20,000 nucleotides of DNA from an uncultured virus (IMG/VR IMGVR_UViG_3300046832_003565) (lineage: Duplodnaviria; Heunggongvirae; Uroviricota; Caudoviricetes), in the IMG/VR virus record IMGVR_UViG_3300046832_003565; one strand, given 5' to 3'. Both the position numbers and the translations under genes were made by a program. This document shows, piece after piece, positions 72-17,719 of the stretch. Each line of letters begins with the position of its first letter. The first letter of the stretch is position 1. The notes beneath the pieces were generated by a model. The model was not told the DNA's origin and did no database searches. It worked only from the letters and a program-made list of their open reading frames with translations.

Positions 72-815
72 TTATTTTCCTTTAAATTTTTTCATCACTT
101 TTCTCACTCTACTGTTCCAGCCTTTTCCAAATTTATCAGCATCTTCATCAGTTTTCAGTCTATAAATTTGTTTATTTGCTATTGCTGTGGCTAGTTTTAT
201 ATCTCCGTTGACAGTGAGTCTTTTTATTTTGTTTATAGTGTCAGAACCCATAATTCCATCCACTTTTAAACCTAATAATTTTTGTACAAGTCTTATCGAA
301 TCTTGTGGACCATCAAGAAGAGCTTGTGAAAGCATAATGTGCGCAACATTTGGTGGTAGTTGATCTCCTTTTATAATGTTCCAATATTCTTCTTTGTAAA
401 TTTGATCTGCTTCTTGTCTTGTTATCTTATAAACATCTTTGAGTGGTTTATTGTGTTTTTTATTCCAATTGTTATAGGTATATTGTGTGATACCTAAATT
501 TGTTTTACCGCCTTTATCATAAGATAAATTAGATTTTCCGCCTTCAAGTTCTACTAGGTTATTTATTATATTTTTGAAATTGTTTGGTTTTGAAGAATTA
601 GAAGTTGGCGCACTTGGTTTTGGAACTACGGGTTTGGGTTTTGGGATTATAGGTTCTGTTGATTCTGGTTTAGTGACAGGTTTTATTACAGGTTTTGTTG
701 TTTTTTTAAGCTGAGTTTTTTTTGCTTTTTCCTCAAGCATTTTATTATATTTCTCAGCATCTAAATTAAATTGATCAACATCAGACATTTGAGCTATAAC
801 TGTTCTGTACCACAT
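72..815 (-). CDS. Glycoside hydrolase family 108-type lysozyme with C-terminal peptidoglycan-binding region, N-terminal MWYR tag and Pro/Lys-rich linker
   Basis: LEGGKSNLSYDKGGKTNLGIT matches the GH108 EGG...D.GG.TN.GIT motif; Y..EYW; VQKLLGLKVDGIMGSDT and FGKGWNSR are typical of the GH108 C-terminal part. Confidence 0.85.
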   Translation of the reverse strand: MWYRTVIAQMSDVDQFNLDAEKYNKMLEEKAKKTQLKKTTKPVIKPVTKPESTEPIIPKPKPVVPKPSAPTSNSSKPNNFKNIINNLVELEGGKSNLSYDKGGKTNLGITQYTYNNWNKKHNKPLKDVYKITRQEADQIYKEEYWNIIKGDQLPPNVAHIMLSQALLDGPQDSIRLVQKLLGLKVDGIMGSDTINKIKRLTVNGDIKLATAIANKQIYRLKTDEDADKFGKGWNSRVRKVMKKFKGK

Positions 816-841
816 ACATATATTTTTTGTATGTTAAAAAG

Positions 842-865
842 AAAAACCCTTTGTTCAAGGGTTTT
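842..865 (-). terminator. Intrinsic terminator-like hairpin
   Basis: AAAACCCTT-tgttc-AAGGGTTTT inverted repeat with a T-run on the minus strand, at the end of the 864..1232 gene. Confidence 0.65.
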
Positions 866-1232
866 ACAAGAAGCTCAAATAGTTATTTATTTTTTGGACA
901 ATATCGCAAGAAGAATCATAGAAATCATTATTTGTATGTTCAAGTTCCAAATCAAGTCTTAAGTCTTTTATTATATTTTGCAAATTGTAATCGTGATTTA
1001 TAATGTTATTTTTTGGCATCCAGAAATTATTTTTGTTTAGTTCATAATCTATATCGTCTAATATTTTACATTCATCAACAAAGTCTTTAACTTCATCGTT
1101 GAAGTTCATTTTTATTTTACTAAGTCTTTGAGATTCTAATAATGCATTGAAATCATCTTCGCAAAATGATCTATTGTTATAAACCATACATTCTACAAAA
1201 ACATAAAAAAACCAATAACTTTTATCTTGCAT
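864..1232 (-). CDS. Hypothetical protein (122 aa)
   Basis: ORF track; TATAAT 5 nt upstream of the ATG on the minus strand; ends at a hairpin. Confidence 0.65.
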   Translation of the reverse strand: MQDKSYWFFYVFVECMVYNNRSFCEDDFNALLESQRLSKIKMNFNDEVKDFVDECKILDDIDYELNKNNFWMPKNNIINHDYNLQNIIKDLRLDLELEHTNNDFYDSSCDIVQKINNYLSFL

Positions 1233-1293
1233 AGTCTATTATAGCCTTATTTTAAGAAAAATAAATTCTGAATTTGACTTGTATAAATTCATG

Positions 1294-1662
1294 ATGCAAA
1301 AGACATCTTGTATTGTAAATAAACCTTTTTCAGCAAATCAAATGTATGTTCCAATTGCTCGTGGAAAAATGGTGAAATCTAAGAAATACAATGCATGGAT
1401 TGAGAAAAATCTTCCAATACTAATAAATGACATGTTGCCTGCAAAACAGTTTCCAGTGAATGTTGAATTGCTTGTTATGGCTAATCATTTATGGAGACAA
1501 AAAAACGATATTGATAATTTAGCAAAACCATTAATTGATCTTTTAGTGAGAGCTGAAATATTTCCAGATGATACATCAAGATACATTGAAAATGTTCATG
1601 TAAGATATTTATATATTTCAGGAGATCCTTTGGTAAGAATTTCTTATGAGCCTGTAGAATAA
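1294..1662 (+). CDS. rusA: RusA-family Holliday junction resolvase
   Basis: KPFSANQMY near the N-terminus and the catalytic pattern DIDNLAKPLIDLL...IFPDD (DxDNxxKxxxDxL..DD). Start moved from TTG 1279 to ATG 1294 (ATG 1291 also possible) because TATAAA lies at 1282-1287. Confidence 0.8.
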   Translation: MQKTSCIVNKPFSANQMYVPIARGKMVKSKKYNAWIEKNLPILINDMLPAKQFPVNVELLVMANHLWRQKNDIDNLAKPLIDLLVRAEIFPDDTSRYIENVHVRYLYISGDPLVRISYEPVE

Positions 1663-1671
1663 AAACATATC

Positions 1672-4026
1672 ATGTGGTACAAATTTTCTAAAAATGTCTT
1701 TTCAGCTTCAGCGCAAATAACAAAATTTCTTTCTCCTTTGCCTGTTCCAGAAGTGATTGAAAAAGCGCCTAGTAATATACAATTAGAACTTGCATATTGT
1801 TACATCGTTGCAGAAAACAGAGATTCAGCAGAAATAAAATTAGCACTTAATCATCTTTCTGAAAAAATGTTTGAATTAAAACAAAGAAATGTAATTACCA
1901 CTAAAGTATCAAAAAAATCTCTAGAAATAAGCTCTTCTTTTGACGAAGTTGATTTTGATGATTTTGAAGCTATTGTTGAACATATTGATTATTTGGATTC
2001 CCAATTGAAACCAAAAAAAGATATGGCAGCAACATTGGACATGAATCCTGTAATCGCTAATGGAAAAATCAAAGTATACAATCCAAAAACTTACGAAGAG
2101 TCAGAAAAAGTATGTGTAGGAACATCGTGGTGTATTGGTGATCGTTCCACTGGAATGTTCTTAAATTACAGATACAACAATGAAAGTAATTTTTATGTTG
2201 TAGAGGATCCAAACAGAAAGTATCCATTCCGTAAAGTGGCAATTGATGTTCGACCTAATGAAATTGAAATTACAGATGAAATAAATGATACTGGATTTAC
2301 TTTAAAAGCTGAATTGATAGTTGATGGTAAAAGTTATGGAAAAAGTATCAAAGGCTATTTTAAATATTTAAGTGATATTTCTAATGGCGAAATAAAAGAA
2401 GAAGATTTTACACCAAGACCTTTATCGCCTGAAGAGCAAGAGACAAAATTAAAATTTGCTGATGAAAACAAAAGTTTATCTTGGTTTATGGACTTATCAT
2501 ATATGGACAAAGAAGCATATATTTTAAGAAGATATGATTTGTCATTTGCTCAATTTATGTTTATGTATGAACGTAAAAATGTATTTAGAGAGCTATTAAA
2601 TCTTGTTGCTACACAACGTCAAGATGAACGTATTCAAAGAGTTATTGAAAAAGATCCGATGTTGTATAGAACTAAATTACGTTCTGATCTTTTGTCCGTT
2701 GTTAATATTGGATTAGATGAAAATAATTTTGACACAATAGTGCAATATAAATTATTCACTGTTCTTGACAGATATATTCAAAACTTTATTGGCAATGTTC
2801 CAAAAATATCACTGTCATATGCTCAATCTAATCAAGAGTTTAAAGATTACATGAAGAAGTTTCTTTCTGAAAAAATCTTTACCACGGAATTCGCTTTTGA
2901 CTTAAGATTTTTCGAATTATTTACAATTGATGAACTTCAATCTCTAGTTCCTACAATGAGCGAAATGTGCAAATCATCATTTAATTCAATAACTAATGTA
3001 GATGGAATTATCGATGCATTTGCTAATCAAGAAATCGACTTTGATCTTTTTGAAAAAGCTATTATAGATCAAATGGATGTTTTAGAAGCAATCAAAAAGA
3101 CGCAAGAAACAATTTTATCCAAAAAATACAAAATTACAAAGCCATTTTATCTAACTAAAGATGTATTGACTATTGAATTTGTAACTGAATGTTTAAAAAA
3201 TAATCTTATATCTGTAGAAATATTAACTGGCAATCAAAGCTCTGGAGAAAATGTCTCCGGTGTGTATGGGTTTGGGCAAGATATAGAATTTGATGAAAGA
3301 TTCAATCATACTGGTACAGTTGTAGCAGCAATGTCTGATGATTCTTATGACTCTTATAATTACGATTTAGCATTTGAATTGATAGCTATTGGCATGCAAA
3401 CTGGTGCTTATAATTTACAATCTATTCCAAGAGAAATTCAACAATCGACTGGCGAATTAGGAGTTGAGGGACTTTTTGAAATTGTTGTAAATAGATCCAA
3501 TAATATTTCCGACATACCATCAAACTTGCTTTCTGATGATGATTTTGTTAGACTTCTGATGAAATCCAATAAATTTACAAGAGAATACTTGGAAAATATT
3601 TCAGAAGAACAGAAAAATGCTTTGGCAGATGCTGCTGTAGGTATCATAAATTCTAAATATGAAAAACAATTTCTAATCAAAGATATTGCAAATGCAAAAT
3701 TAGAATCAAAACTTAAAAAATTAAATCCATCATTGTTTACTACACCATCTACATCAGCAAGACCAGCAACTTTACCCGCAAATTCCTCGCAAAAAATGAC
3801 AAGAGGTAGAGCAATGATAGCTCTTGGACTAAAACCAGGAGATAAGTATCATGAAAAAGAAGCTGATGCTCTAAATATAAGTAGTGAAATTACAAAAGTT
3901 CAATTTGATGCAATTAAGAAAAAGTTCGATGCTGACCGTGCTGGAGCAAGTGCAGAAGACTATGTTGATTTCAAATACATGTATGAAGATGACGATTCTG
4001 ATGATGATGACTTTGACATTTACTAA
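1672..4026 (+). CDS. Large hypothetical phage protein (784 aa) with MWYK tag and acidic C-terminal tail
   Basis: Long ORF; segment IKVYNPKTYEESEKVCVGTSWCI...F.NY...FYVV resembles a module I recall from large-phage proteins; ends EDDDSDDDDFDIY. Confidence 0.8.
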   Translation: MWYKFSKNVFSASAQITKFLSPLPVPEVIEKAPSNIQLELAYCYIVAENRDSAEIKLALNHLSEKMFELKQRNVITTKVSKKSLEISSSFDEVDFDDFEAIVEHIDYLDSQLKPKKDMAATLDMNPVIANGKIKVYNPKTYEESEKVCVGTSWCIGDRSTGMFLNYRYNNESNFYVVEDPNRKYPFRKVAIDVRPNEIEITDEINDTGFTLKAELIVDGKSYGKSIKGYFKYLSDISNGEIKEEDFTPRPLSPEEQETKLKFADENKSLSWFMDLSYMDKEAYILRRYDLSFAQFMFMYERKNVFRELLNLVATQRQDERIQRVIEKDPMLYRTKLRSDLLSVVNIGLDENNFDTIVQYKLFTVLDRYIQNFIGNVPKISLSYAQSNQEFKDYMKKFLSEKIFTTEFAFDLRFFELFTIDELQSLVPTMSEMCKSSFNSITNVDGIIDAFANQEIDFDLFEKAIIDQMDVLEAIKKTQETILSKKYKITKPFYLTKDVLTIEFVTECLKNNLISVEILTGNQSSGENVSGVYGFGQDIEFDERFNHTGTVVAAMSDDSYDSYNYDLAFELIAIGMQTGAYNLQSIPREIQQSTGELGVEGLFEIVVNRSNNISDIPSNLLSDDDFVRLLMKSNKFTREYLENISEEQKNALADAAVGIINSKYEKQFLIKDIANAKLESKLKKLNPSLFTTPSTSARPATLPANSSQKMTRGRAMIALGLKPGDKYHEKEADALNISSEITKVQFDAIKKKFDADRAGASAEDYVDFKYMYEDDDSDDDDFDIY

Positions 4027-4074
4027 AACAGTTATTTAATTGTTAAAGATTTGGTAAGTCGTCAATGTTTAGAA

Positions 4075-5700
4075 TTATGAGCCTTTTCTGTAAACATTAT
4101 TATTGTATGATGCAAATTTTTCATCATCCTTCAGTATTGTTTCTCTGATTTCTTTAGTATTGATAAAAGGAGTGATATTTTCTTGTTCATCTCCTCCATA
4201 CCACCATTTTTTATATCCAGAAGGCAATTTAAACTCTTCGCCTCTTATGTCCTTGAATCTAAATGCGAAATTACTCTTTTCAAACCATTCTTGTATTTTT
4301 TCTGCAATTATGAACCACAAAAATTCAGGTTGATTTTGATACCATTTTCCGAAATCTTCACCAGGTGAATCATCTTGATATTTTTCCTTCATGTTTTCAT
4401 ATTCTTTTGTAGCCACTTCAAGAAAAAATCTGGCATCCAAATATTTTCTAAAATCATGAGATATTGGACTTTGGCTTAGGGCTAATAAAGCTTTAGCCAC
4501 CAATCCATCGTATATTTTTTCAGCATAATCTTCTAAATCATAATCTTCGATTGTATATTCTTTTCTATCGCCGTAACTATAAGCATCTCTATTTTTGTTT
4601 AAACCATTGGTAATCGAATCTATAACATTTTGTGTTATATCTGTCATATTAGCCTGGTATAAATTTCCTTCACTGAATTTTTTATAATCAAATACTGGTG
4701 ATCTGATACCAAATCTATTAAAATCTTCAGGAGCATCATCATCGAGATCATCAACTTCATATTCTTCTGGACCATATATAGATCTGTGAATATTGTAATC
4801 TATTTCAGTTGGGTCATAAGTCCAATATATTCCTTCTTGCCAATCTTCAAAATGATCCAACATTGGATTGCGTCTGATATCTTTTTCAATATCGTCTTGG
4901 CTTTCAAAAAACTCTTTAATTTTTTCTACTAAATCATCTTCTGTAATTTTTTTATTATTATGCCCTTTGACTTGTTTAACTTTATCACCAACCACTTCTA
5001 TTGTTACATGTGGTTGATTTCCAGGGTCTCTTAAGGAATAAATATTTGTATTGCCTCTTCTTACTTCATCCCAATATCCAGCAACACAGTGGTGCATTTT
5101 TGCGCCTTCTACATCTAAATCATTTTCAGAAATCACTTCTACCATACTCCAGCCATCTGGGTATTTCATTATTTCATTTCTGTCAGCTGGATTGTAAAAT
5201 TTACCTGAGCCTCTACCTTGCAACATTGATTCCCATTGATCTGTATCTTGGACTACTTCCTCCCAAGATTTTAAGCCTAAATTATAATCGGGATCATTAA
5301 TTTCAATATTATTTACAAAATCTTGAACATGAAGAGCTAATTCTAAAAAATTACCATGATCTCCAAAACCACCTTGTGGAATATTATGACTGTATTCTCC
5401 ATCAGGTCTAGCTGGTTGAACTCTCCAACCTTTTAATTTATGAAAAAGCCAATTTTTAAATTTTTCATTTTGAAAACGAGCTAATATAAATTGTTCTTCT
5501 CTTGTTGGTTTATTTTGTCTGGATAGATTTTCTAATTCTTGTAATGAAATGTTAGGATTTTTCTTTATAGCGCCTAGCATTTTACCTTTTGTAGCATCGT
5601 CATATTTTGAATTAGAAAAAACAGATAATATAGATTCATCTACACCTTGTGTTCTTAGCTTTTCCACTTCATCTTGTAAATTTGCAAATCTATACCACAT
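4075..5700 (-). CDS. PcfJ-like domain protein (541 aa) with MWYR tag
   Basis: DLDVEGAKMHHCVAGY...IYSLRD...PHVTIEV...VKQVKGHNN fits the PcfJ-like pattern EG..M.HCV..Y / SLR / TIE / Q..G..N. Confidence 0.75.
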   Translation of the reverse strand: MWYRFANLQDEVEKLRTQGVDESILSVFSNSKYDDATKGKMLGAIKKNPNISLQELENLSRQNKPTREEQFILARFQNEKFKNWLFHKLKGWRVQPARPDGEYSHNIPQGGFGDHGNFLELALHVQDFVNNIEINDPDYNLGLKSWEEVVQDTDQWESMLQGRGSGKFYNPADRNEIMKYPDGWSMVEVISENDLDVEGAKMHHCVAGYWDEVRRGNTNIYSLRDPGNQPHVTIEVVGDKVKQVKGHNNKKITEDDLVEKIKEFFESQDDIEKDIRRNPMLDHFEDWQEGIYWTYDPTEIDYNIHRSIYGPEEYEVDDLDDDAPEDFNRFGIRSPVFDYKKFSEGNLYQANMTDITQNVIDSITNGLNKNRDAYSYGDRKEYTIEDYDLEDYAEKIYDGLVAKALLALSQSPISHDFRKYLDARFFLEVATKEYENMKEKYQDDSPGEDFGKWYQNQPEFLWFIIAEKIQEWFEKSNFAFRFKDIRGEEFKLPSGYKKWWYGGDEQENITPFINTKEIRETILKDDEKFASYNNNVYRKGS

Positions 5701-5702
5701 AA

Positions 5703-6494
5703 TTAATCCTCTTCAAATAAATTGACATCAGAAGTTTGAAATTTTTGTTTATCATTAGATGGCAATCTTTCAATTTTATTTTTGACATCAAAATGCCATT
5801 GTGGTGCATCAGAAATTCCAGAAGGATCAAAACTTGCACTTCCCAATTCATTAGCCATATTTCTAACAAGCTTGAGTTTTTCTTCTTCTGGAAGATTAGA
5901 GTGTTCTTCTTTTATTTCTTTATCATACGATTGGTAAGGATCAGTAGCTTCAATTGGAAAACCAAGCCCTTTGAATCTTGCCCAAAATGCTTCTTTTGAA
6001 TGAACACGCCCAGTGATAAATTTTATATTTGGCTTTTGTATTTGAAGGTATTTTTTAAGCTCTTGATATAATTTTTTTCCAATTCCCCAATCAACTCTAG
6101 TAATTGAAGAATCATCAACCAAATATCCAGCACTTGATAATTGGTCTAGATATTCAGATTTTTTTTTATCTTCTGGGTTAACAGGTTTTCCGTATTGTTT
6201 CTTGCCTTTAGATGTAGGATATTCATATATTGATGTGTATATAATACGAGCGGTATCAGAACTGTCAGGAGCTTCGAAATCGATATAACCTAATTTTCTT
6301 CCATCATAAAGATAGGCATACAATCTATATTCTTCTGGGTATTCATCATCTTCAATCACTTCAAACTTTAAATTATCCAAATCAAAACGTTTAGGTTTTT
6401 CACCAGGATTAAGTGGATAAGTATTTTTACCAGAAAAATCCATATTGATTTGACCAGAAGGATCAACTTTAGTGATAGCTAATTTGTACCACAT
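5703..6494 (-). CDS. Hypothetical protein (263 aa), probable GNAT-fold acetyltransferase-like, with MWYK tag
   Basis: KLGYIDF...ARIIYTSI...WGIGKKLYQELKKY...GRVHSKEAFW resembles GNAT motif A (xGIGxxL) and motif B, with an insertion. Confidence 0.55.
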   Translation of the reverse strand: MWYKLAITKVDPSGQINMDFSGKNTYPLNPGEKPKRFDLDNLKFEVIEDDEYPEEYRLYAYLYDGRKLGYIDFEAPDSSDTARIIYTSIYEYPTSKGKKQYGKPVNPEDKKKSEYLDQLSSAGYLVDDSSITRVDWGIGKKLYQELKKYLQIQKPNIKFITGRVHSKEAFWARFKGLGFPIEATDPYQSYDKEIKEEHSNLPEEEKLKLVRNMANELGSASFDPSGISDAPQWHFDVKNKIERLPSNDKQKFQTSDVNLFEED

Positions 6495-8710
6495 TATAAA
6501 TCTCTCTTTATCACTACTGCAATACTGCCTGATGAAATCATTTGAGACAATTTTTCACGTTCATTTGAATCTTCAGAAAGTGTTGATTCATATTCTAAAG
6601 CAATTTCAATAACACTCTTTAAAGAATTGATATCGCCTTTTTTTATGTCGTCTATATATTCTTCCCACATCAAATGCAGTTCTTCAGTGATATCTGCAAA
6701 ATAATTGCCATCATAATCAGGATCAGGTCCTTCAGATTTTATTGTTTGCAAGCATTTACTTATGTAAAAATCTTTGATATTTTCTAATATTTGTTTGTTA
6801 GATATATCTTTAGAAGGTTTGAATAAATCATTGTAGCTAAAATCAGACAGCCCCTCGTCTTGTACTGCTGCTAATCTAAACTTTTTATGATTGTAAGCAT
6901 AAATCCATTTTTCGGGAGATACATCAGAGTTAGTGTCAAATAATTCTAACTGTCTATTTCTTCCATGGTTGTAGTTTCTGTATTTATTGTAAAATTTCAC
7001 AACAGAACTTGGAGTGATAGGTGATAAATCTAAATTCAATCCGATTTTATTAGCTAATCCATAAAACTCAGATGGAAGATTTTTTAACATATATTCATAC
7101 AATTCATCTGTAAAATAAACTGAATATACATCGTAGATTCCATCGTATTGTTTAAGTATTTTTTCGCCATCTTCATCAAATTTAGCTCTTCCACGTTTAG
7201 GTTCTCTACGATATGGCGACATTGCTATATCATCTATTTCTTCTGGACTTTTATCTTTGAAGTTAAATAATCTTGCAGGACCGAGATCTTGTTCTCTAAA
7301 TTTCCTACTTTGTGGTTCAGTAATCTGTTCTAATTCTTCATCAATATAAGTCATTAAGTGATCCTTAACAACTTCAATTTTAAGTTTAGCTTTGACTTCT
7401 TTTTGATTAATCCCTAATGGACGAGATTCTTTTGCATATTCTTTTAAGTAATTAATATCGTGGCGAATGAACATATCTCCAATATAAGAAATTAATTCTT
7501 CAAATCCTTCATAATTAATTTCTTCAGATGATTTGTAAAATTCTGGATCATCATAATAGCCACCACGGTTTTGTCCTATTTTATCTATCAAATAGTCAAT
7601 ATCAAATTCTTCAATAAATTCATCTTCATCTACAGTAACAGGTCGTAAAGGAACTCCTAGACCGTCAGTTGAATCTTCATCAAAATATGGATTTAAGTAT
7701 TCTTGTATAGATTCTAATGCTCTGTTTTCATCAGAACCTGATCTAAAATAAAATTCGTGATCATAAGTTTTATCTTTTGAATAATATTTTCCTTGATATA
7801 TCCATTGCTGAATCAATTTCAAGTAATCATCTTTAGGTCTGGAATTGCCTTTGCCCTTAATTTGCTGAACAGAGTCTGGTAAATCAATTTCAATGGTTAC
7901 ATGTGGTTGGTTTGATTCATCACGTAAAGAAAAGATTTCAATTGTACCCCTTTGAAATTGAGTAAAATAATTGTTAGTTCCTACACAGTGACCCATGATA
8001 TCGCCTTCAATATCAAAATCACTTTCTTCTGTTATCTTGACAATCATCCAACCAACATATTTATCAGATAAACCAATTCTATCAATTGTCTCTTTATCAA
8101 AAATGAATACGACATTTGGATCAACTATTTGTCCATTTTCTTTTTTAATCTTAGTAAATGTTTTTGTTGATGTTTGATTTGCAAGTTCTTCATGCCATCT
8201 GTCACTTGCTTGCATTGCTTGATCAAGAGTCATTGAAAAAATATTGAATCTTGGGCTTTGATCTAAATGATCTACATACCAGTCAAATACATGTCTTATT
8301 TCTGTTCCAATCATGGTAACAGCGTTGTATGGCATGTTTGAAAATTTTGGGTAAGTGTAATTTTCAGGGTCAAACTGATTAGGTCTATAAGAAGGAATAG
8401 CCACTCTATCGACCCATTTGTAAAAGTTAGCTTTTTGCTCCTCAGATAGATTAGAATTGGTAACCAAAGTATCTATTTCAGAAAGCAATCTCATTTCTTG
8501 AATTGAAAGATTATTTGTCTTTTTTGGACTTAATTTTTCTTCTAACTCATTCCAAGACATTAATGGGTTTTGCATCAATGCGCCAATATATTTTCCTCTT
8601 AAGGCAAGATCTGCCATCTCTTGAAGCTTGGTAATATTGTCTTGGCTTACACCTTTTTCTTTAAGTGTTTCGAAAGCTTTTTCTGCATTTTGTGCAAGTT
8701 TATACCACAT
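6494..8710 (-). CDS. PcfJ-like domain protein (738 aa) with MWYK tag; paralog of 4075..5700
   Basis: DFDIEGDIMGHCVGTNNY...IFSLRDESNQPHVTIEI...VQQIKGKGNS; N-terminal ~60 aa align by eye with the 541-aa protein. Confidence 0.75.
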   Translation of the reverse strand: MWYKLAQNAEKAFETLKEKGVSQDNITKLQEMADLALRGKYIGALMQNPLMSWNELEEKLSPKKTNNLSIQEMRLLSEIDTLVTNSNLSEEQKANFYKWVDRVAIPSYRPNQFDPENYTYPKFSNMPYNAVTMIGTEIRHVFDWYVDHLDQSPRFNIFSMTLDQAMQASDRWHEELANQTSTKTFTKIKKENGQIVDPNVVFIFDKETIDRIGLSDKYVGWMIVKITEESDFDIEGDIMGHCVGTNNYFTQFQRGTIEIFSLRDESNQPHVTIEIDLPDSVQQIKGKGNSRPKDDYLKLIQQWIYQGKYYSKDKTYDHEFYFRSGSDENRALESIQEYLNPYFDEDSTDGLGVPLRPVTVDEDEFIEEFDIDYLIDKIGQNRGGYYDDPEFYKSSEEINYEGFEELISYIGDMFIRHDINYLKEYAKESRPLGINQKEVKAKLKIEVVKDHLMTYIDEELEQITEPQSRKFREQDLGPARLFNFKDKSPEEIDDIAMSPYRREPKRGRAKFDEDGEKILKQYDGIYDVYSVYFTDELYEYMLKNLPSEFYGLANKIGLNLDLSPITPSSVVKFYNKYRNYNHGRNRQLELFDTNSDVSPEKWIYAYNHKKFRLAAVQDEGLSDFSYNDLFKPSKDISNKQILENIKDFYISKCLQTIKSEGPDPDYDGNYFADITEELHLMWEEYIDDIKKGDINSLKSVIEIALEYESTLSEDSNEREKLSQMISSGSIAVVIKRDL

Positions 8711-8711
8711 T

Positions 8712-9050
8712 TTATTTTACTTTCTTTTTAATTTTATATAAAACACTTACAGGATGATCGTTAATTAATGAAGCCCAATATCCAGGATTTATTTCTTCAG
8801 GAGAAACTAACACTTTGTAAATTATAAGAGATTTTCTTCTGTCATTGAAAAAATTAGTGTCGCCAAAGTCTGTTGCTTCTTCAGGTGTAGTGGCTAATAA
8901 TGATTTTGCTCTCAATACATTAAGATCAATTCTAGAACCATGATAAAAAACATATTTATCACCCTCTTTTTGAACTTGATGTCTTTGCAACCATTCTTCA
9001 TTAGTTTCAGACGTTTGATTAAACAAAGATTGAGAAATTCTATACCACAT
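8712..9050 (-). CDS. Small protein (112 aa), possible ADP-ribosyltransferase fold, with MWYR tag
   Basis: YVFYHGS...LLATTPEEATDFG...IIYKVLV resembles the H-G-[T/S] strand 1, the [Y/F/L]-x-[T/S] strand 2 plus helix, and the downstream strand of ART-fold domains. Confidence 0.5.
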   Translation of the reverse strand: MWYRISQSLFNQTSETNEEWLQRHQVQKEGDKYVFYHGSRIDLNVLRAKSLLATTPEEATDFGDTNFFNDRRKSLIIYKVLVSPEEINPGYWASLINDHPVSVLYKIKKKVK

Positions 9051-9051
9051 T

Positions 9052-9882
9052 TTAATATTCTCTTATATCTGACAAATATTCGCTATGTTTATATATGCTT
9101 ACACTATCTGCTGTAAGTTCAACATCATCAATTCTTGAAAAATCATAATAGCTATTACAAATTTCATAACAAGAATAAGGAATATCAATATCATAAACAT
9201 CTACAGTTTCATCATCGTTTTCGTCAGAAGGAATGTCAAATGCTTCGTTTGAAACTGCGACAACTTGAACATATTCATGGTTGCAATGATTGCCTTCTTC
9301 ATTCTGTGTAAGAACTGTAAATTCTGGAAATTCTGCTTTTACTACATCAGCTATTTCTTTAGCAATATAATTGCAGATGCCTCCAACACCCCATGCATCT
9401 CTATATTCTTCTTCTGAATTAAATTTCTTAGGATCCCAGTCATCATAAACTGATTGAGCAGCTGCAGCAATTTTTGAGCTGATTTTTCTTATTCTTTGAG
9501 CAATTGGATCATCATCTAAATATGAAGATGTTTTTATATTTTTGTAATATAGAGGTTCTCTAAATGAAAAATCTTTATTTCTACCTTTGTTAGGAACAAA
9601 ATCATTTTTTTTGTAAAATCTCCGCAACTCTGTTTTTTTACCCTTATCATGTTCAGGATAAAGTACTATAGGTTTGCCAACTTGATCGCTATACTCTTTT
9701 AATTTTGTAAGTATTTCAGAACCTATACCAGAATCTTGCATATTTTTTGGAACTCTAATTCTAGACAATTCAATTACTTGGGCAAGTTCATAAATTGATA
9801 ATTCAACTTCTGGATATTTTTCCTTAAAAAAAGAAATTATATCTTGAACATTATTTTGAATTGAAGCTATTTTGTACCACAT
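9052..9882 (-). CDS. Two-domain protein (276 aa): N-terminal GNAT-like domain plus unknown C-terminal domain, with MWYK tag
   Basis: IELSRIRVPKNMQDSGIGSEILTKL...PIVLYP...LRRFYKKNDF matches GNAT V....Q..GIG and FY.k.gF motifs; second domain contains GGICNYIA and HCNHEY. Confidence 0.7.
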   Translation of the reverse strand: MWYKIASIQNNVQDIISFFKEKYPEVELSIYELAQVIELSRIRVPKNMQDSGIGSEILTKLKEYSDQVGKPIVLYPEHDKGKKTELRRFYKKNDFVPNKGRNKDFSFREPLYYKNIKTSSYLDDDPIAQRIRKISSKIAAAAQSVYDDWDPKKFNSEEEYRDAWGVGGICNYIAKEIADVVKAEFPEFTVLTQNEEGNHCNHEYVQVVAVSNEAFDIPSDENDDETVDVYDIDIPYSCYEICNSYYDFSRIDDVELTADSVSIYKHSEYLSDIREY

Positions 9883-9906
9883 ATGTCAATTATTCTATTT
9901 CAAAAG

Positions 9907-9933
9907 AAAAAAAACCCTGTAGAAGGGGGTTTT
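9907..9933 (-). terminator. Intrinsic terminator-like hairpin downstream of the M23 gene
   Basis: Minus strand AAAACCCCCTTCTACAGGGTTTTTTTT: GC stem followed by T8. Confidence 0.6.
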
Positions 9934-9937
9934 CATT

Positions 9938-10597
9938 CTAAAAATTTGGACTCACTGGTGATCCATTCAATCGCAGTTCAAAATGCAAATGTGGTCCTGT
10001 TGCACGACCTGTTTTACCAACTTTTCCAATTACTCTATTTTGCATCACTTCTTCATCAACACGAACATCAATACTACTCAAGTGTGCATAATAAGTTTCA
10101 TAACCGCCACCATGATCAATAATCACCAAATTTCCATAGCTACCTTTGGGACCAGCATGTGTAATTGTGCCACTTTCAGAAGCTATAACAAAATCATCTT
10201 CATTTCCATCAATATCAATACCCTGATGATTTGTAGATGCACCGTCCATAGGAGCATCTCTAGGTCCAAAATTTGAAGTTATTGATCCATCTAGTGGTTT
10301 TTTAAAATTCAATTCACCTGTGTCATTATTAGTATCAGACTTATCATCATTTGTAGGCAAATTATTTTCTTCTACAATTTTATTATAATTTGATATGATA
10401 TCGCTTGAATTAAAATTGTCTTCTGCAATTAATTTGTTTTTATAACTTCTAAATGCATCTGATATCTTTTGCAAATCAGAAGTTTTTTGCTTAATTGAAA
10501 AAATATATCCTGTCATTGCTCCATAGAGGCTATCAGGATCATTTGTATTGTCAAGATTGTCAACTTCGGAATTAAACTTTGCTATTTTATACCACAT
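9938..10597 (-). CDS. M23-family metallopeptidase (peptidoglycan endopeptidase) with MWYK tag
   Basis: ITSNFGPR...HQGIDI (HxxxD), YGNLVIIDHGGGYETYYAHLS, VGKTGRATGPHLHFE (HxH). Confidence 0.93.
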   Translation of the reverse strand: MWYKIAKFNSEVDNLDNTNDPDSLYGAMTGYIFSIKQKTSDLQKISDAFRSYKNKLIAEDNFNSSDIISNYNKIVEENNLPTNDDKSDTNNDTGELNFKKPLDGSITSNFGPRDAPMDGASTNHQGIDIDGNEDDFVIASESGTITHAGPKGSYGNLVIIDHGGGYETYYAHLSSIDVRVDEEVMQNRVIGKVGKTGRATGPHLHFELRLNGSPVSPNF

Positions 10598-10648: not shown

Positions 10649-10650
10649 TA

Positions 10651-10723
10651 TACAACCAGCAGGACTCGAACCTGCGACCAACTGCTTAGAAGGCAGTTGC
10701 TCTATCCGCTGAGCTATGGTTGC
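10651..10723 (-). tRNA. trnR: tRNA-Arg(TCT)
   Basis: Cloverleaf GCAACCA/TGGTTGT, D arm GCTC/GAGC, anticodon arm ACTGC-CTTCTAA-GCAGT, T arm GCAGG-TTCGAGT-CCTGC; no encoded CCA. Confidence 0.95.
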
Positions 10724-10752
10724 ATTTAGTAAGCATTTCAACTTACAAATCT

Positions 10753-12846: not shown

Positions 12847-14214
12847 TTATACACTATGTAAAACTGTACCCCATGCTGGATAACAATCATTATTGCAATT
12901 AATATATAAATCTCCTGAACCACAGGGGCAAAAATCATTATCTTTATAAGAAGTTTTTACTTCTGGTATTCCATCATGGCAGTCTGCCAAATCATAAGGA
13001 GATGGATGATTAAATTTTCTTAACTTATTGCTATATATTGTATCAAAGGTATCGACCAAAGGTCTTAAAGAGTGATTGACATCATGATTATCAATTATAT
13101 AATCTTTTAATTTTTCACCCATTGATTGTCTTAATTCTTTATTATCAATGAGTTTTTTGATGTTATTGTACCAATCTTCACTATCATTTGATATAAAACC
13201 ACCTATTCCATTACTTTCAACATGAAATCGTTGATTGTTTGCAACTTTAGAAGCAACATATGGAATAGATAAAGCTCCATATTCATATAATTTTAAAGCA
13301 GATTTACATCTACCAAAAATTGTATTTACAACTGGAGCTAAACCTATATCAAAAGATGATATTTTATGAGGATAATCAGTAAAAGGCTGGCAGTCAAAAA
13401 ACACCAACTTGTTTGCTGGCACTTTGTGATTTCTCATACACACATTCATTGCCATGTCAAATTCACAAAGAATACCAAAAAATACATTATCATATTCTCT
13501 TAAGATTTGAATTATAGGTTCTATGATTTCATTCAAGTCTGTTATATGACTACTGGATCCAAAAAAACCAATCAGCAAACTATTTTCGTCTACTTTGCAG
13601 CCTTGCTTAGAAGCATAAGTTTTCCAATCAAATTTTGAATCAAATGAATATCTATCTTTTATATCTATGTAATTTGGTAAAAATGAGCAATTTAGGTTCA
13701 AATGCTTATAGTATGCCATTAATTCTCTAGTTGAATAAAAAACAAAATCTGATGATGAAATGTTATTTTCTAATATTTCAATATTTATTTTTCCCTGTTC
13801 AAGATCTTGATCAAAAAAATGAAAGCTTGGATTTTCCCTATCAACATAATGATAGTTATCATCAAGATCAAATATGAGAACTGAGTTATTTTTTTCAGCT
13901 ATTTCTTTAATCACTGGGAAATTTTTGTTATCAATTACTTTTGGTGCAATAATGAACTTGCATCCATTAAGAACTGATATTTGCTGGGCTCTTGGATAAC
14001 AACAAATACTAACAGTGCAATCATTGTCTCCCAAGTTTTTATATGGAACTCTTGCTCTGTACCAATCATGCTCGCCTGCTACAACAGATACAGAAAGTAA
14101 GTTGTTAGAATTAGTGGAAATATGTTGATAATCAATATCTGTTTGTATGAAATTAGCACAAACTTTCATCATTTTTTCCCTAACAATATTGGCTTTATAA
14201 AGAGTGTCTTTCAT
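12847..14214 (-). CDS. GT-B fold (GT4-like) glycosyltransferase with C-terminal SEC-C-like motif
   Basis: WYRARVP, IFDLDD, LPNYID, IGFFGSSSH..DL, FDIGLAPV....F..CKSALKLYEYGALSIPYVAS, LIDNKELRQSMGE; tail CPCGSGDLYINC. Confidence 0.85.
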   Translation of the reverse strand: MKDTLYKANIVREKMMKVCANFIQTDIDYQHISTNSNNLLSVSVVAGEHDWYRARVPYKNLGDNDCTVSICCYPRAQQISVLNGCKFIIAPKVIDNKNFPVIKEIAEKNNSVLIFDLDDNYHYVDRENPSFHFFDQDLEQGKINIEILENNISSSDFVFYSTRELMAYYKHLNLNCSFLPNYIDIKDRYSFDSKFDWKTYASKQGCKVDENSLLIGFFGSSSHITDLNEIIEPIIQILREYDNVFFGILCEFDMAMNVCMRNHKVPANKLVFFDCQPFTDYPHKISSFDIGLAPVVNTIFGRCKSALKLYEYGALSIPYVASKVANNQRFHVESNGIGGFISNDSEDWYNNIKKLIDNKELRQSMGEKLKDYIIDNHDVNHSLRPLVDTFDTIYSNKLRKFNHPSPYDLADCHDGIPEVKTSYKDNDFCPCGSGDLYINCNNDCYPAWGTVLHSV

Positions 14215-14309: not shown

Positions 14310-14380
14310 TTTTCCGGTAGAGATTCGAACTCCAATTAAAGGCACCAAAAACCTCTGTCCTACCATTGAACGACCGGAAA
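14310..14380 (-). tRNA. trnQ: tRNA-Gln(TTG)
   Basis: TTTCCGG/CCGGAAA acceptor (U1-A72), GAGGT-TTTTGGT-GCCTT anticodon arm, TGGAG-TTCGAAT-CTCTA T arm. Confidence 0.9.
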
Positions 14381-14399
14381 CTATATTTTAATTATACAA

Positions 14400-14472
14400 T
14401 AGTCTGTAGGGGGATCGAACCCCTGGTCTCATCCGTGAAAGGGACGCATCTTAACCACTCGACTAACAGACC
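14400..14472 (-). tRNA. trnE: tRNA-Glu(TTC)
   Basis: GGTCTGT/ACAGACT acceptor, CGTCC-CTTTCAC-GGATG anticodon arm, AGGGG-TTCGATC-CCCCT T arm. Confidence 0.92.
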
Positions 14473-14490
14473 ATATGTGATTATTATACC

Positions 14491-15249
14491 TTATTTTTTT
14501 GGGATTTCAAGCTTCCCAAATTTAATTTTTTCCCAATCTCCTCGACCTGGTTTTTTAATTCCGTAATATTTACACCATTTATTTACTGCATTATCACTAA
14601 CACCAAACATTTCTCCAATTTTCACACAAGGCATTTCCCATACTAACTTTTTTAAAACTTCTTTATCAGGTCTTTTAGATATTTTTATAACAGGTGCATA
14701 ATTCACTACTGGCTTTGTTTCTGGAATATAAGTTTGCCTGATTTCATTTTGAAGAGAAACATATTCATCTATTTCTAAGAAACCTGCGTGAATTTCAGAA
14801 TGACAATTAGAACAAACTATAATACATTTATTAAGTTCAATTTGTAAAACTTCAAATGGCTTGGTCATATTGCTGGAAAAACCAAATTCTTTTTCGTGTG
14901 GTTCTATGTGATGAAAGTGCAGTGCAGAAATACATTTGTCATAATTACAAACTATACATTTACCACCCATATATTCAACTGCTTTAAGTTTTTTATTTTG
15001 TCTTGATCGAGTTGTCCGACAAGTATTGCAAATATTTTTATGCTGTTGATGCCCTCCTGGATAATCTTTTTCACAAATACGACAAGTGTTCATTACTGGT
15101 TTTTCTTCTGTTAAATTCAATTGTTTTGTATTATGTTGATTGAATGGCGAACATTCGAAACAATACAAACGATTATTAGTGGATTTTAACTGTCCTTCTA
15201 AATAAATTCTTGAGGGTATTGTATTTTCACAGTTTTTGCATTTCTTCAT
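14491..15249 (-). CDS. Free-standing HNH endonuclease (putative homing endonuclease) with N-terminal Zn-finger motifs and C-terminal HTH-like region
   Basis: GGKCIVCNY...ALHFHHIEP..KEF...ELNKCIIVCSNCHSEIH is an HNH core; four further CxxC motifs upstream; IGEMFGVSDNAVNKWCKYYGI is HTH-like. Confidence 0.88.
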   Translation of the reverse strand: MKKCKNCENTIPSRIYLEGQLKSTNNRLYCFECSPFNQHNTKQLNLTEEKPVMNTCRICEKDYPGGHQQHKNICNTCRTTRSRQNKKLKAVEYMGGKCIVCNYDKCISALHFHHIEPHEKEFGFSSNMTKPFEVLQIELNKCIIVCSNCHSEIHAGFLEIDEYVSLQNEIRQTYIPETKPVVNYAPVIKISKRPDKEVLKKLVWEMPCVKIGEMFGVSDNAVNKWCKYYGIKKPGRGDWEKIKFGKLEIPKK

Positions 15250-15330
15250 ATTAATAATTTCCTTTGGTAGTATTTTTTACTATACTACCATTAATTGTTC
15301 GTATCAAAATGAATTATACCTTGTAAATAA

Positions 15331-15363
15331 ATAAATCCCCATACTTTTGCATGGGGATTTATT
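15331..15363 (-). terminator. Terminator-like hairpin downstream of the tRNA-Met/tRNA-Asn pair
   Basis: ATAAATCCCCAT-acttttgc-ATGGGGATTTAT inverted repeat. Confidence 0.7.
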
Positions 15364-15365
15364 AG

Positions 15366-15646
15366 CTCCAACTGCTGGGATCGAACCAGCGACCGATCGG
15401 TTACTTACTACTATAGTTTTCACTACCAGATAATCTGTTTGTAGTCTGGACTATACCATCATCCTTAGCATTACCTAGTAGGATGTCGTCATTATAGTCT
15501 CTGCACCTTCCCTTACGGGCTTGGCTCAGTGTTGACATATCTTTCGACTTAGTTTTCACTGAATTTCGACAATTTTCTATACTAAATTACTTTAATAAGC
15601 TGCTATCTGTTTACAGCCGATTGCTCTACCGCTGAGCTAAGTTGGA
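15366..15646 (-). tRNA. trnN: tRNA-Asn(GTT), split by a group I intron (5' exon 15646-15613, 3' exon 15403-15366)
   Basis: Joined exons give a 72-nt cloverleaf: TCCAACT/AGTTGGA acceptor, G discriminator, ATCGG-CTGT^TAA-CCGAT anticodon arm, GCTGG-TTCGATC-CCAGC T arm. Confidence 0.92.
15404..15612 (-). ncRNA. Group I self-splicing intron (209 nt, no ORF, IC3-like)
   Basis: 5' exon ends in U and intron ends in G; P1 pairs exon GCUGU with intron GCAGC giving a U.G at the splice site; P4 UUCAGUG/CACUGAG; P3 UGUCG/CGACA; R GCAGAGACUAUA and S GGUAUAGUCC form P7; GAAA-capped stem near the 3' end. Confidence 0.92.
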
Positions 15647-15650
15647 TCAA

Positions 15651-15724
15651 GTGCGGGAGGGGGATTTGAACCCCCGACCTGTAATTTATGAGACTACCGA
15701 GCTACCAAACTGCTCCATCCCGCG
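15651..15724 (-). tRNA. trnM: tRNA-Met(CAT), initiator-like but atypical
   Basis: CGCGGGA/TCCCGCA acceptor with C1.A72 mismatch, GAGC/GCTC D stem, TTCAAAT T loop, anticodon arm GTAGT-CTCATAA-ATTAC; 4 nt upstream of tRNA-Asn. Confidence 0.9.
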
Positions 15725-15747
15725 CTACAATTTATTATACCACAAAA

Positions 15748-16247: not shown

Positions 16248-17006
16248 TTACTTAACATTAAATGCTTTACCAGTGAGTGTTGTGAATCTTGCTATGGATT
16301 TTTCATAATATTCATCATCCATTTCACAGCCTTTAAATACTCTTTCTGTATTGTCACATGCAATCATTACAGAAGCAGAACCAGCAAAGAGATCTAAAAC
16401 CACATCACCAGTTTTTGTATATGCTTTGATTAATCTTTCTAAAATCTCTAATGGTTTTTGTGTTGGATGCCAGTTGCAATATTCTTTTGAAGTGGTGTGA
16501 TTATTTTTTTCCCAAACACAAGTTGGAATAGTGCCTTTATCATATTCTTCTCCTGTTCGGATATTAATCTTTTGCTTTCTTTCTTTTCTTACAGCATCTT
16601 CATTGAATAAGAAAGTTTTTTCTTTTGAGTAGCACCAAATATATTCATGTTTTCTGGCAAAATTAGTTTTGCTTCTTCCTCCCCAATTGTAAGACCATAT
16701 TATTTCATTTTGTGAATGGAAATCGGGAAGTTTGTCAAGAATTTCTAATTTGTATCTTAGAAAAGTGTTGTATTTCAAAGTACCAAATACACACATCATT
16801 TTGTTGGGCTTAAGCACCCTAGCACATTCTTTTGACCAAGATTCGCACCATATTAGATAGGTTTCATCTGAAGTCCATTGTTTATCCCATCCTTTGCCAC
16901 CATCATAGCCAATAAAATATGGTGGATCTGTGAGAATTAGATCAATAGAATTATCTGGTAATGTTTTAAGATATTCGAGACAATCAAGATTCTTATATTC
17001 GTGCAT
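16248..17006 (-). CDS. DNA amino-methyltransferase (N6-adenine/N4-cytosine, beta class), apparently orphan
   Basis: IDLILTDPPY catalytic motif first, then HPTQKP and the SAM-binding VLDLFAGSAS. Confidence 0.93.
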   Translation of the reverse strand: MHEYKNLDCLEYLKTLPDNSIDLILTDPPYFIGYDGGKGWDKQWTSDETYLIWCESWSKECARVLKPNKMMCVFGTLKYNTFLRYKLEILDKLPDFHSQNEIIWSYNWGGRSKTNFARKHEYIWCYSKEKTFLFNEDAVRKERKQKINIRTGEEYDKGTIPTCVWEKNNHTTSKEYCNWHPTQKPLEILERLIKAYTKTGDVVLDLFAGSASVMIACDNTERVFKGCEMDDEYYEKSIARFTTLTGKAFNVK

Positions 17007-17122: not shown

Positions 17123-17719
17123 ATGACTAATCCTGATTTTTTAAATTGGAAAGAGCTTTTTGTAAGTGAGAGCAACCGTATAGATCCTCAACCTGGGTAT
17201 CTAGGAAATTCTAGTGGCTGCCCCATGTACGAAAATCATATGAGCGCATTGAATTTTGCATTGTCTAGTGATTTTGAATTGAAAGAATCTACTCCTTTAG
17301 ATGTTCACAGGCTATTGACAAAGGGTATACCATTTTTTGAAGATTGCAATATGAGTGGGCAATATAGAACTACATCAGTTTGGATAGGCATAGATATGTG
17401 CCCTAAATTTGTTTTATTACCATCATTGATGACGCAATGGTATGAATGCACTAAAAAGTGGATGGATTCATGCCAGGATAAGAAATCTGCTTACAATATT
17501 GCTTGGGCATCTCATAACATGTTTGAAGTGGTACATCCTTTTATAGATGGCAATGGTCGCACTGGAAGATTGCTATTTAATAAAGTATTAGTTGAACTTG
17601 GATGTGACCCAGTGATATTTCAATTTGATGATAGATACGAATATTATGAATGCATACAAGAATTTAGAAATTCTTATTGGAACGGTATGCAATTTGATTT
17701 CACTTCTTTGAAATTATAA
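17123..17719 (+). CDS. Fic-domain protein (putative AMP transferase)
   Basis: Intact HPFIDGNGRTGR motif; FVSESNRID and GQYRT..VWIG segments are typical of Fic/Doc proteins. Confidence 0.93.
   Translation: MTNPDFLNWKELFVSESNRIDPQPGYLGNSSGCPMYENHMSALNFALSSDFELKESTPLDVHRLLTKGIPFFEDCNMSGQYRTTSVWIGIDMCPKFVLLPSLMTQWYECTKKWMDSCQDKKSAYNIAWASHNMFEVVHPFIDGNGRTGRLLFNKVLVELGCDPVIFQFDDRYEYYECIQEFRNSYWNGMQFDFTSLKL

What the first reader, a model, noticed from the sequence alone, without database searches (positions are those of the whole stretch)
15366..15646. Group I intron inside the anticodon (position 35/36) of a phage tRNA-Asn(GTT)
Seen: a complete 209-nt group I core with correct P1 U.G and terminal G splits the anticodon as GT^T. 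Established: the classic bacterial tRNA group I introns are in Leu(UAA), fMet, Ile(CAU) and Arg(CCU), and phage group I introns are mostly in protein-coding genes. I recall that 35/36 introns in tRNA-Asn/Asp have been noted in Patescibacteria, but this should be verified. A phage-borne copy would be missed by standard tRNA scans. Inference: phages may move such introns between hosts, and the intron may protect the gene from nucleases targeting the intact anticodon sequence.
Basis: partly seen in the sequence, partly recalled or inferred. Interest (0 to 1): 0.78.

Follow-up and report, generated by a model that had tools for sequence, protein, structure and literature searches.

The report
Self-splicing intron splitting phage tRNA-Asn
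A large uncultured phage carries its asparagine tRNA gene split inside the anticodon by an intact self-splicing (group I) intron of a known bacterial kind; close relatives of this intron appear as excised RNA circles in river water, and a neighbouring DNA-cutting gene may be what keeps the intron in place.

Summary
Confirmed. A 209-nt group I intron (15612-15404, minus strand) splits a phage tRNA-Asn(GUU) at 35/36: Rfam 75.7 bits, strong covariation, and intron-less twins of two related alleles fix both borders. New evidence of activity: in 2 of 4 RNA runs laid, close relatives (not this copy) form circles closed at the terminal G, one U short of full length; ligated exons were not seen. The site is known in bacteria (Williams 2020; Nakagawa 2025, title only) and common in phages: 25 of 39 viral hits. 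The intron sits in at least seven unlike tRNA-Asn alleles of one phage family. The adjacent free-standing HNH belongs to the family encoded inside bacterial Asn introns and seldom stands beside an intact gene (9:1 versus 4:10 haplotypes, p=0.0045), but intron and HNH distances do not co-vary. Phage-to-host transfer is unsupported: its clade is phage-only in my sample. The scan reported this intron family and the HNH idea before on other DNA.

The parts
15613..15646 (-). tRNA-Asn(GUU) exon 1, positions 1-35, ending in U35 (5' splice site)
   Evidence: ARAGORN intron mode and in-script splice test; intron-less twins of related alleles
15404..15612 (-). 209-nt ORF-less group I intron, IC3-like, terminal G at 15404
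   Evidence: RF00028 75.7 bits; covariation; circles of relatives closed at this G
15598..15603 (-). internal guide sequence, 3' strand of P1; G at 15603 pairs with U35
   Evidence: 6-pair P1; P1 columns 93% paired
15448..15572 (-). catalytic core P3-P8, with the P3/P7 pseudoknot and the guanosine-binding pair in P7
   Evidence: helix map; P3 6 of 6 pairs covary, P7 nearly invariant
15366..15403 (-). tRNA-Asn exon 2, positions 36-73; CCA end not encoded
   Evidence: sequence
15330..15363 (-). 13-pair hairpin right after the tRNA, terminator-like
   Evidence: seen in the sequence; similar hairpins in relatives; not listed by the consensus scan
14491..15249 (-). free-standing HNH endonuclease gene, 252 aa ('HNH-A'), candidate homing nuclease for intron-less tRNA-Asn genes
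   Evidence: PHROG 2255 E 7.8e-34; 41-50% identity over 47-83 aa to 12 HNH frames inside cellular tRNA-Asn introns; motif intact in 14 of 14 full copies
15650..15725 (-). tRNA-Met(CAU), 3 nt upstream, probably on the same transcript
   Evidence: ARAGORN and Rfam; co-transcription inferred
15734..15744 (-). extended -10-like box just upstream of tRNA-Met
   Evidence: seen in the sequence; not listed by the consensus scan; function inferred

Best explanation
It is a working, ORF-less group I ribozyme in the phage's tRNA-Asn(GUU) gene. The Met-Asn precursor folds the intron core; a free guanosine cuts after U35, the exons are joined at the terminal G, and a normal tRNA-Asn is released, the intron being freed as a linear RNA that in some variants closes into a circle. 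The intron is a selfish, nearly harmless passenger. It most likely persists and spreads among co-infecting phages because the adjacent free-standing HNH nuclease cuts intron-less tRNA-Asn genes at the anticodon arm while the split gene is immune (collaborative homing). Shown: structure, borders, mobility among alleles, excision and circularisation of close relatives. Inferred: splicing of this copy, exon ligation, use of the tRNA, and everything about the HNH's target. Confidence is 0.93 for the splicing part and about 0.5 for the HNH part; the number given is for the splicing intron with the HNH as the leading, unproven helper.
For: Core and covariation. Empty twins: exons of L350 are identical to the intact genes of L341, L342, L311, L346, L351, L353, L357, L310, L335; exons of L352 are identical to those of L315, L316. 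RNA: contigs in runs X7 and X10 join 15603 back to 15403 with the same 7 other letters between; X7's contig is 239 nt with a 30-nt end overlap, a 209-nt circle. DNA loci L411, L417, L421 carry that P1 loop, and the join equals their intron minus its first U; six listed X10 differences (intron 59, 60, 78, 96, 98, 179) match the L417 type. Cleavage after an early U is what Azoarcus does (PMC13168695 passages). HNH: 10 of 12 viral loci with a 75-100% identical HNH have the intron, 1 is empty with a changed anticodon stem (L313), 1 is cut off; without it 4 intron versus 14 empty contigs; Fisher p 0.0005 by contig, 0.0045 by haplotype. Same HNH family lies inside 12 cellular Asn introns but does not match the frames in phage Leu introns (best BLAST E 0.07). 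Neighbouring parts otherwise reassort freely, so plain linkage is a weak account of the association.
Against: No contig showed joined exons; 2 of 4 runs showed no circle; X13 shows the unspliced form or DNA; both circle runs are 2018 river sets and may be one campaign. The circles are from relatives (3-10 differences and another P1 loop); this copy has no U at its 5' end and may not circularise there. The intron often stands without HNH-A: 4 viral contigs and 8 of 21 metagenome loci. Intron and HNH-A distances correlate only while near-identical copies are kept (rho 0.475, n 14) and not after thinning (rho 0.03, p 0.40, n 10). The HNH family fills other tRNA slots too, and HNH-A is not closer to the intron-encoded enzymes than its paralogues. 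Ordinary break repair would copy the donor's exons along, yet the intron sits in native, unlike exons. Haplotypes were grouped by eye and are not independent.
Confidence: 0.72

Rival explanations
1. The intron is active but moves on its own by an RNA route (reverse splicing into any tRNA-Asn that ends in the same 4-6 exon bases, reverse transcription by a host enzyme, recombination); the HNH is an unrelated tenant of the slot.
For: Introns 90-98% identical to this one sit in exons only 56-78% identical that share 4-8 bases at the 5' junction; free intron RNA exists; about half of the intron loci lack HNH-A; no intron-HNH co-variation. The route is described as theoretical in PMC3984707 (passage).
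Against: No RVT_1 match in 5 of 5 relatives, three of them 84-89% complete. It does not explain why HNH-A almost never stands beside an intact gene. The same review says direct experimental support for the full route is lacking (passage cut off).
Confidence: 0.25
2. The intron is an old inherited resident of this phage family; its spread over alleles comes from ordinary recombination in a mosaic tRNA cluster and repeated precise loss, with no dedicated mobility.
For: The cluster is highly mosaic in Asn, Glu and Gln alleles; a chimera with exon 1 and exon 2 of different alleles around the intron exists (L415); allele A was never seen empty.
Against: Alleles 56-61% identical in exons carry introns 90-95% identical, which common descent of the whole gene cannot give; crossing over inside the intron makes mismatched stems, not new working alleles.
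Confidence: 0.15
3. The intron is kept because it shields the phage tRNA from host anticodon ribonucleases or times its supply.
For: Phage tRNAs do counter tRNA-cutting defences (PMC10264068 abstract and passages; PMC11555353 search listing). An unspliced precursor has no intact anticodon loop (inference).
Against: The spliced product is an ordinary target; many relatives do without the intron; PMC10264068 does not mention introns (0 occurrences).
Confidence: 0.07
4. This copy is a dead relic or the RNA circles are library or assembly artefacts.
For: Only assembled contigs were available; template switching can make false joins; no joined exons seen.
Against: All core pairs are intact; the join falls exactly at the terminal G and after the first U in two different sequence variants; each of 36 DNA loci holds a single copy, so no tandem repeat explains it.
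Confidence: 0.04

Closest known systems
Bacterial tRNA-Asn 35/36 group I introns (site 4 in the scheme of Williams 2020, bioRxiv 10.1101/2020.01.27.920355, whole main text read, tables are images; Nakagawa et al. 2025, bioRxiv 10.1101/2025.07.03.662931, title seen only in a reference list, content recalled)
   Same: Same tRNA, same site, U before and G at the end; 56 of 120 genome hits are of this kind, in Patescibacteria, Omnitrophota, Acidobacteriota, Chloroflexota, DPANN-labelled and other bins.
   Different: Here in a phage; Williams searched bacterial and archaeal assemblies only. No nuclease frame in P1, unlike 12 of the cellular introns. It falls in a phage-only clade. The label 'Asn.4Ug' itself I saw only in earlier AI notes, not in the paper's text.
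Classical IC3 tRNA introns: Azoarcus tRNA-Ile (36/37), cyanobacterial tRNA-Leu(UAA) (34/35), tRNA-fMet (33/34), tRNA-Arg(CCU)
   Same: Small size, no P5abc, 3-nt link between P7 and P3, GNRA loops on P2 and P9, early-U circularisation as in Azoarcus (the subgroup criteria other than P5 are recalled).
   Different: Different tRNA and site; circle forms after intron U1 in the variants seen, after U2 in Azoarcus; no subtype model could be run.
Collaborative homing (free-standing endonuclease plus ORF-less intron; described in PMC3984707 and PMC2988022, passages read) and T4 SegB in the tRNA cluster
   Same: ORF-less intron with a free-standing nuclease gene 116 nt downstream of the split gene; the same nuclease family is found inside the homologous introns in cells.
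   Different: Host gene is a 73-nt tRNA with many unlike alleles, not a protein gene; cleavage site untested; SegB is GIY-YIG and cuts between tRNA genes.
tRNA introns of Lak megaphages (Devoto 2019, PMC6784885, passages read)
   Same: Phage tRNA genes with introns.
   Different: Those were called enigmatic and not assigned to group I in the passages seen; other tRNAs (Tyr, Thr).

Membership tests
Group I intron (RF00028) | U.G pair in P1 at the 5' splice site | tested here: met
   U35 with intron G10, 6 contiguous pairs
Group I intron (RF00028) | Terminal G at the 3' splice site | tested here: met
   G15404; border fixed by intron-less twins and by RNA circles of relatives
Group I intron (RF00028) | P4-P6 and P3-P7-P8 core with guanosine site | tested here: met
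   75.7 bits; helices and covariation
Group I intron (RF00028) | Guanosine-dependent self-splicing with exon ligation | tested here: inconclusive
   Excised circles of relatives in 2 of 4 RNA runs; no joined exons; not this copy
Subgroup IC3 | No P5a-d extension (PMC11835236 passage) | tested here: met
   P5 region is one short hairpin, intron 60-78
Subgroup IC3 | No extra helices between P7 and P3, as IA introns have (criterion recalled) | tested here: met
   P7 5' strand ends at intron 118, P3 3' strand starts at 122
Subgroup IC3 | Best score against subtype-specific covariance models | not testable with these tools
   No subtype models are held; filed as IC3-like only
tRNA-Asn 35/36 intron class | Insertion between anticodon positions 35 and 36 of tRNA-Asn(GUU) | tested here: met
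tRNA-Asn 35/36 intron class | One lineage with the cellular Asn introns | tested here: inconclusive
   Phage-only clade, bootstrap 99; deep nodes unresolved; Asn introns are not monophyletic in the tree
Collaborative homing pair | ORF-less intron with a free-standing endonuclease gene nearby | tested here: met
Collaborative homing pair | Endonuclease cuts the intron-less allele at or near the insertion site; split allele immune | not testable with these tools
   Only indirect: presence pattern and family link
Collaborative homing pair | Intron and endonuclease inherited together | tested here: inconclusive
   Presence association p 0.0045 but no distance correlation after thinning

The most novel reading that the evidence does not exclude
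In these large phages each tRNA slot is contested by its own HNH homing nuclease; HNH-A cuts intact tRNA-Asn anticodon DNA, the ORF-less ribozyme is its immunity module, and the ribozyme enters unrelated tRNA-Asn alleles by an RNA route or by repair on 4-8 bases of homology. That would give, in one family, the free-standing and intron-encoded states of one nuclease and a natural test of RNA-mediated group I mobility.
Probability: 0.17. Interest if true: 0.85.

Novelty: new variant of a known kind. Interest (0 to 1): 0.52.

Why it matters
Group I introns in phage tRNA genes are invisible to default annotation yet occur in well over a hundred IMG/VR contigs, so phage tRNA sets are under-counted; I found no paper describing them as group I. 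This family offers matched split and empty alleles, an intact candidate nuclease and RNA evidence of excision in nature, which makes two old questions testable with short synthetic substrates: how ORF-less introns reach new sites, and whether composite mobile introns arise from free-standing nucleases. The element itself is a known kind at a known site, which caps the interest.

Tried and rejected
Paper searches for the Patescibacteria study found nothing; led to its citation but the text is not held, so its IA subgroup claim is recalled and untested. Al-Shayeb 2020 main text has no 'intron'. The intron database paper mentions no phage. INPHARED blastn gave 55 records, none covering 80%. Single-sequence AlphaFold of the HNH was useless (pLDDT 31.5); no Pfam, NCBIfam or PDB sequence hit. 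The HNH core tree could not tie HNH-A to the intron-encoded enzymes (89 columns). The Mantel signal vanished on thinning. tRNA-Glu as HNH-A target was considered and is less likely: the same Glu alleles occur with and without it (Glu type association p 0.12). The site classifier broke ties badly (it gave L448 = L150 a 33/34 call), so I do not use its tally; 46 of 151 Patescibacteria genomes match the intron model but their tRNA sites are not reliably assigned. mis-scored L307 as Asn-intron (the hit was an Arg intron; one search shows its Asn gene intact); L292 (more distant phage, other HNH) and five loci without an Asn gene in view were left out of the association test. Runs X6 and 12 unlaid runs give no evidence; lack of cover on the HNH in RNA contigs says nothing. 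Eight weak rows were dropped from the intron tree, whose alignment model was built from phage introns. No Armatimonadota genome handle was available, so the likely host was not searched. Williams's tables and supplements could not be seen and may list counts for this class.

Full report
Observation. The feature is on the minus strand as described. Exon 1 runs 15646-15613, the intron 15612-15404 (209 nt) and exon 2 15403-15366; ARAGORN in intron mode calls tRNA-Asn(gtt) with the intron after position 35, and the joined exons give a regular cloverleaf. RF00028 scores 75.7 bits against a gathering score of 50 when the stretch is searched with permissive filters, but default ARAGORN, the gathering scan of the window and the genome-wide family search all missed it. 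All core helices can be drawn. On an alignment of 32 phage introns (32 rows: the window and 31 of 40 distinct candidates listed) 96.1% of cells pair, 32 of 52 pairs have two-sided changes and no shuffle of 500 comes near; slid controls give 28-45%. The layout is IC3-like: one short P5 hairpin, three bases between P7 and P3, GNRA loops on P2 and P9 (criteria partly recalled).

Setting. The window lies in a 52-kb virus record estimated 15% complete; relatives reach 300-358 kb. It is the only match to my intron model in the record, and ARAGORN finds no other tRNA-Asn there. A prepilin-type DUF1559 gene elsewhere on the contig has its best named relatives in Armatimonadota (74% to Armatimonas) and is present in 3 of 5 related records, the three most complete: a single-gene hint at the host.

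Borders and mobility. In the same gene slot, related phages carry several unlike tRNA-Asn genes. Near-identical introns (90-98% to this one) sit in exons 56-84% identical as well as in this allele: alleles here called A (window), B, C, C2, D, F and H. For B and C the exact intron-less twins exist, which fixes both splice sites without any folding argument. So the intron has changed alleles within the family, or alleles have changed around it.

Activity. Of 16 RNA-type runs listed I laid 4. X7 and X10 each hold a contig that runs from 15603 back to 15403 with the same seven other letters between. X7's contig is 239 nt with a 30-nt end overlap, so the molecule is a 209-nt circle. The seven letters are not this copy's P1 loop, but three metagenome loci (L411, L417, L421) have exactly that loop, and the join equals such an intron less its first U, closed on the terminal G. 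The added G plus that U would mimic exon bases 34-35 against the guide sequence (inference); Azoarcus circularises in the same manner after U2 (PMC13168695, passages). Six of X10's listed differences match the L417 type; X7's exact DNA source was not found. Limits: these are relatives, the data are contigs, the two sets may be one campaign, X13 shows only the unspliced form or DNA, X6 shows nothing on the intron, and no joined exons were reported.

How common. A viral scan for the 3' half of such genes gave 39 loci: 25 Asn 35/36, 12 Lys 35/36, 2 unresolved. In GTDB genomes the scan also hit its limit: of 120 loci 56 were Asn, 18 Lys, 1 false and 45 uncalled, 17 of the Asn loci in Patescibacteria-labelled bins. 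In a tree of 99 intron cores (170 columns, 8 rows dropped) the window's intron groups at bootstrap 99 with five phage Asn introns and no cellular one; deeper nodes are weak. Among 401 Patescibacteria genomes 8 gave partial BLAST hits, the longest 67% identical. Recent exchange with cells is therefore not shown; the cellular sample is capped and lacks the likely host.

The neighbouring nuclease. A 252-aa HNH gene follows the tRNA. Its core is 41-50% identical to frames inside 12 cellular tRNA-Asn introns and does not match the frames inside phage Leu introns by BLAST. Among 12 viral loci with a close orthologue, 10 have the intron, one is empty but has a changed anticodon stem and one is cut off; among neighbour-anchored contigs without it, 4 have the intron and 14 are empty; p is 0.0005 by contig and 0.0045 for hand-grouped haplotypes. 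Against a tight partnership: 8 of 21 metagenome intron loci lack it; intron and nuclease distances do not co-vary once near-duplicates are removed; paralogues fill the Glu-Gln, post-Thr and, in empty alleles C and E, the same Asn-Glu slot, and HNH-A is no closer to the intron-encoded enzymes than they are. The pattern fits an incompatibility (nuclease beside an intact, sensitive gene) better than a fixed cassette. A parallel is seen for the Glu-Gln paralogue, which never stands before the window's type of Gln anticodon arm (one 653-nt spacer in L355 was not classified).

Mechanism. Most likely the precursor self-splices to a normal tRNA-Asn, and the intron survives as a selfish passenger helped by the HNH, which would cut intact Asn genes of co-infecting relatives. 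The unexplained step is entry into unlike exons with only 4-8 shared bases at the 5' junction: ordinary repair should bring the donor's exons along. Either repair on very short homology (a title to that effect is in the reference list of PMC3984707; not read) or reverse splicing with a host reverse transcriptase is needed; no RVT_1 gene was found in 5 related records.

What is known. Williams 2020 (whole main text) raised the list of intron-split bacterial tRNA settings from 4 to 21, from cellular genomes only; the table is an image I could not read. Nakagawa et al. 2025 is cited by title in PMC12641178 and is not held; its content is recalled. Devoto 2019 reported unclassified introns in Lak phage tRNAs (passages). 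Reviews state that phage group I introns tend to lie in protein genes and describe collaborative homing (PMC3984707, PMC2988022; passages). Four searches found no paper on group I introns in phage tRNA genes; most subscription papers are outside the library. Earlier AI notes of this scan describe the same intron family and the HNH idea on other DNA and one circle for a different phage tRNA intron.

Verdict. Real, very probably active, a known kind of intron at a known site in a setting (phage, with a free-standing nuclease of the intron-associated family) that I did not find in print. Interest 0.52.

Noticed in passing
G000:C1:21812-22780 (L429:113-1081), outside the window: Prepilin-type DUF1559 / H-X9-DG gene with best named relatives in Armatimonadota, carried by the three most complete related phages; host hint and a possible phage-borne pilin-like gene.
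   Followed up: partly
L307:4959-5178, L432:1501-1719, L135: The same phage family has a second, different group I intron in tRNA-Arg(UCU) at 34/35, in at least two Arg alleles; the window's Arg gene (10650-10724) is intact and its exons resemble L307's.
   Followed up: partly
L259, L262, L263, L265, L272, L275, L277, L285; cellular L141, L158, L161, L203: Group I introns at 35/36 of tRNA-Lys (CUU and UUU) in 12 viral and 18 cellular loci; some carry a non-HNH nuclease-like frame; phage L259 groups with a Reyranella intron at bootstrap 100.
   Followed up: partly
L415:730-950: Chimeric gene: exon 1 of allele A and exon 2 of allele H around the intron, with mismatched stems and an HNH remnant; recombination inside the intron or an assembly chimera.
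   Followed up: no
window 14310-14473 and related loci: tRNA-Glu and tRNA-Gln slots also swap among unlike alleles; the HNH paralogue in the Glu-Gln slot was not seen before the window's type of Gln anticodon arm.
   Followed up: partly
window 72-10597: A run of ten or so genes whose products all begin with M-W-Y, including two PcfJ-like proteins, an M23 peptidase and a GH108 lysozyme.
   Followed up: no
L002:1326-1976 (LR756508.1) and L001:1392-1682 (LR756501.1): Two huge phage genomes in GenBank carry unannotated group I-like introns in tRNA genes: Leu(UAA) in the 735-kb one, two Lys-like genes in the 484-kb one.
   Followed up: partly
L145, L154, L155 and other Collinsella loci: About 25 Collinsella loci match the intron-plus-tRNA 3' pattern but got no splice call from my script; their nature is unresolved.
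   Followed up: no
window 12847-14214, 16248-17006, 17123-17719: Glycosyltransferase between tRNA-Gln and tRNA-Thr (absent from that slot in the relatives shown), a DNA methylase and a Fic-domain gene upstream of the tRNA cluster.
   Followed up: no
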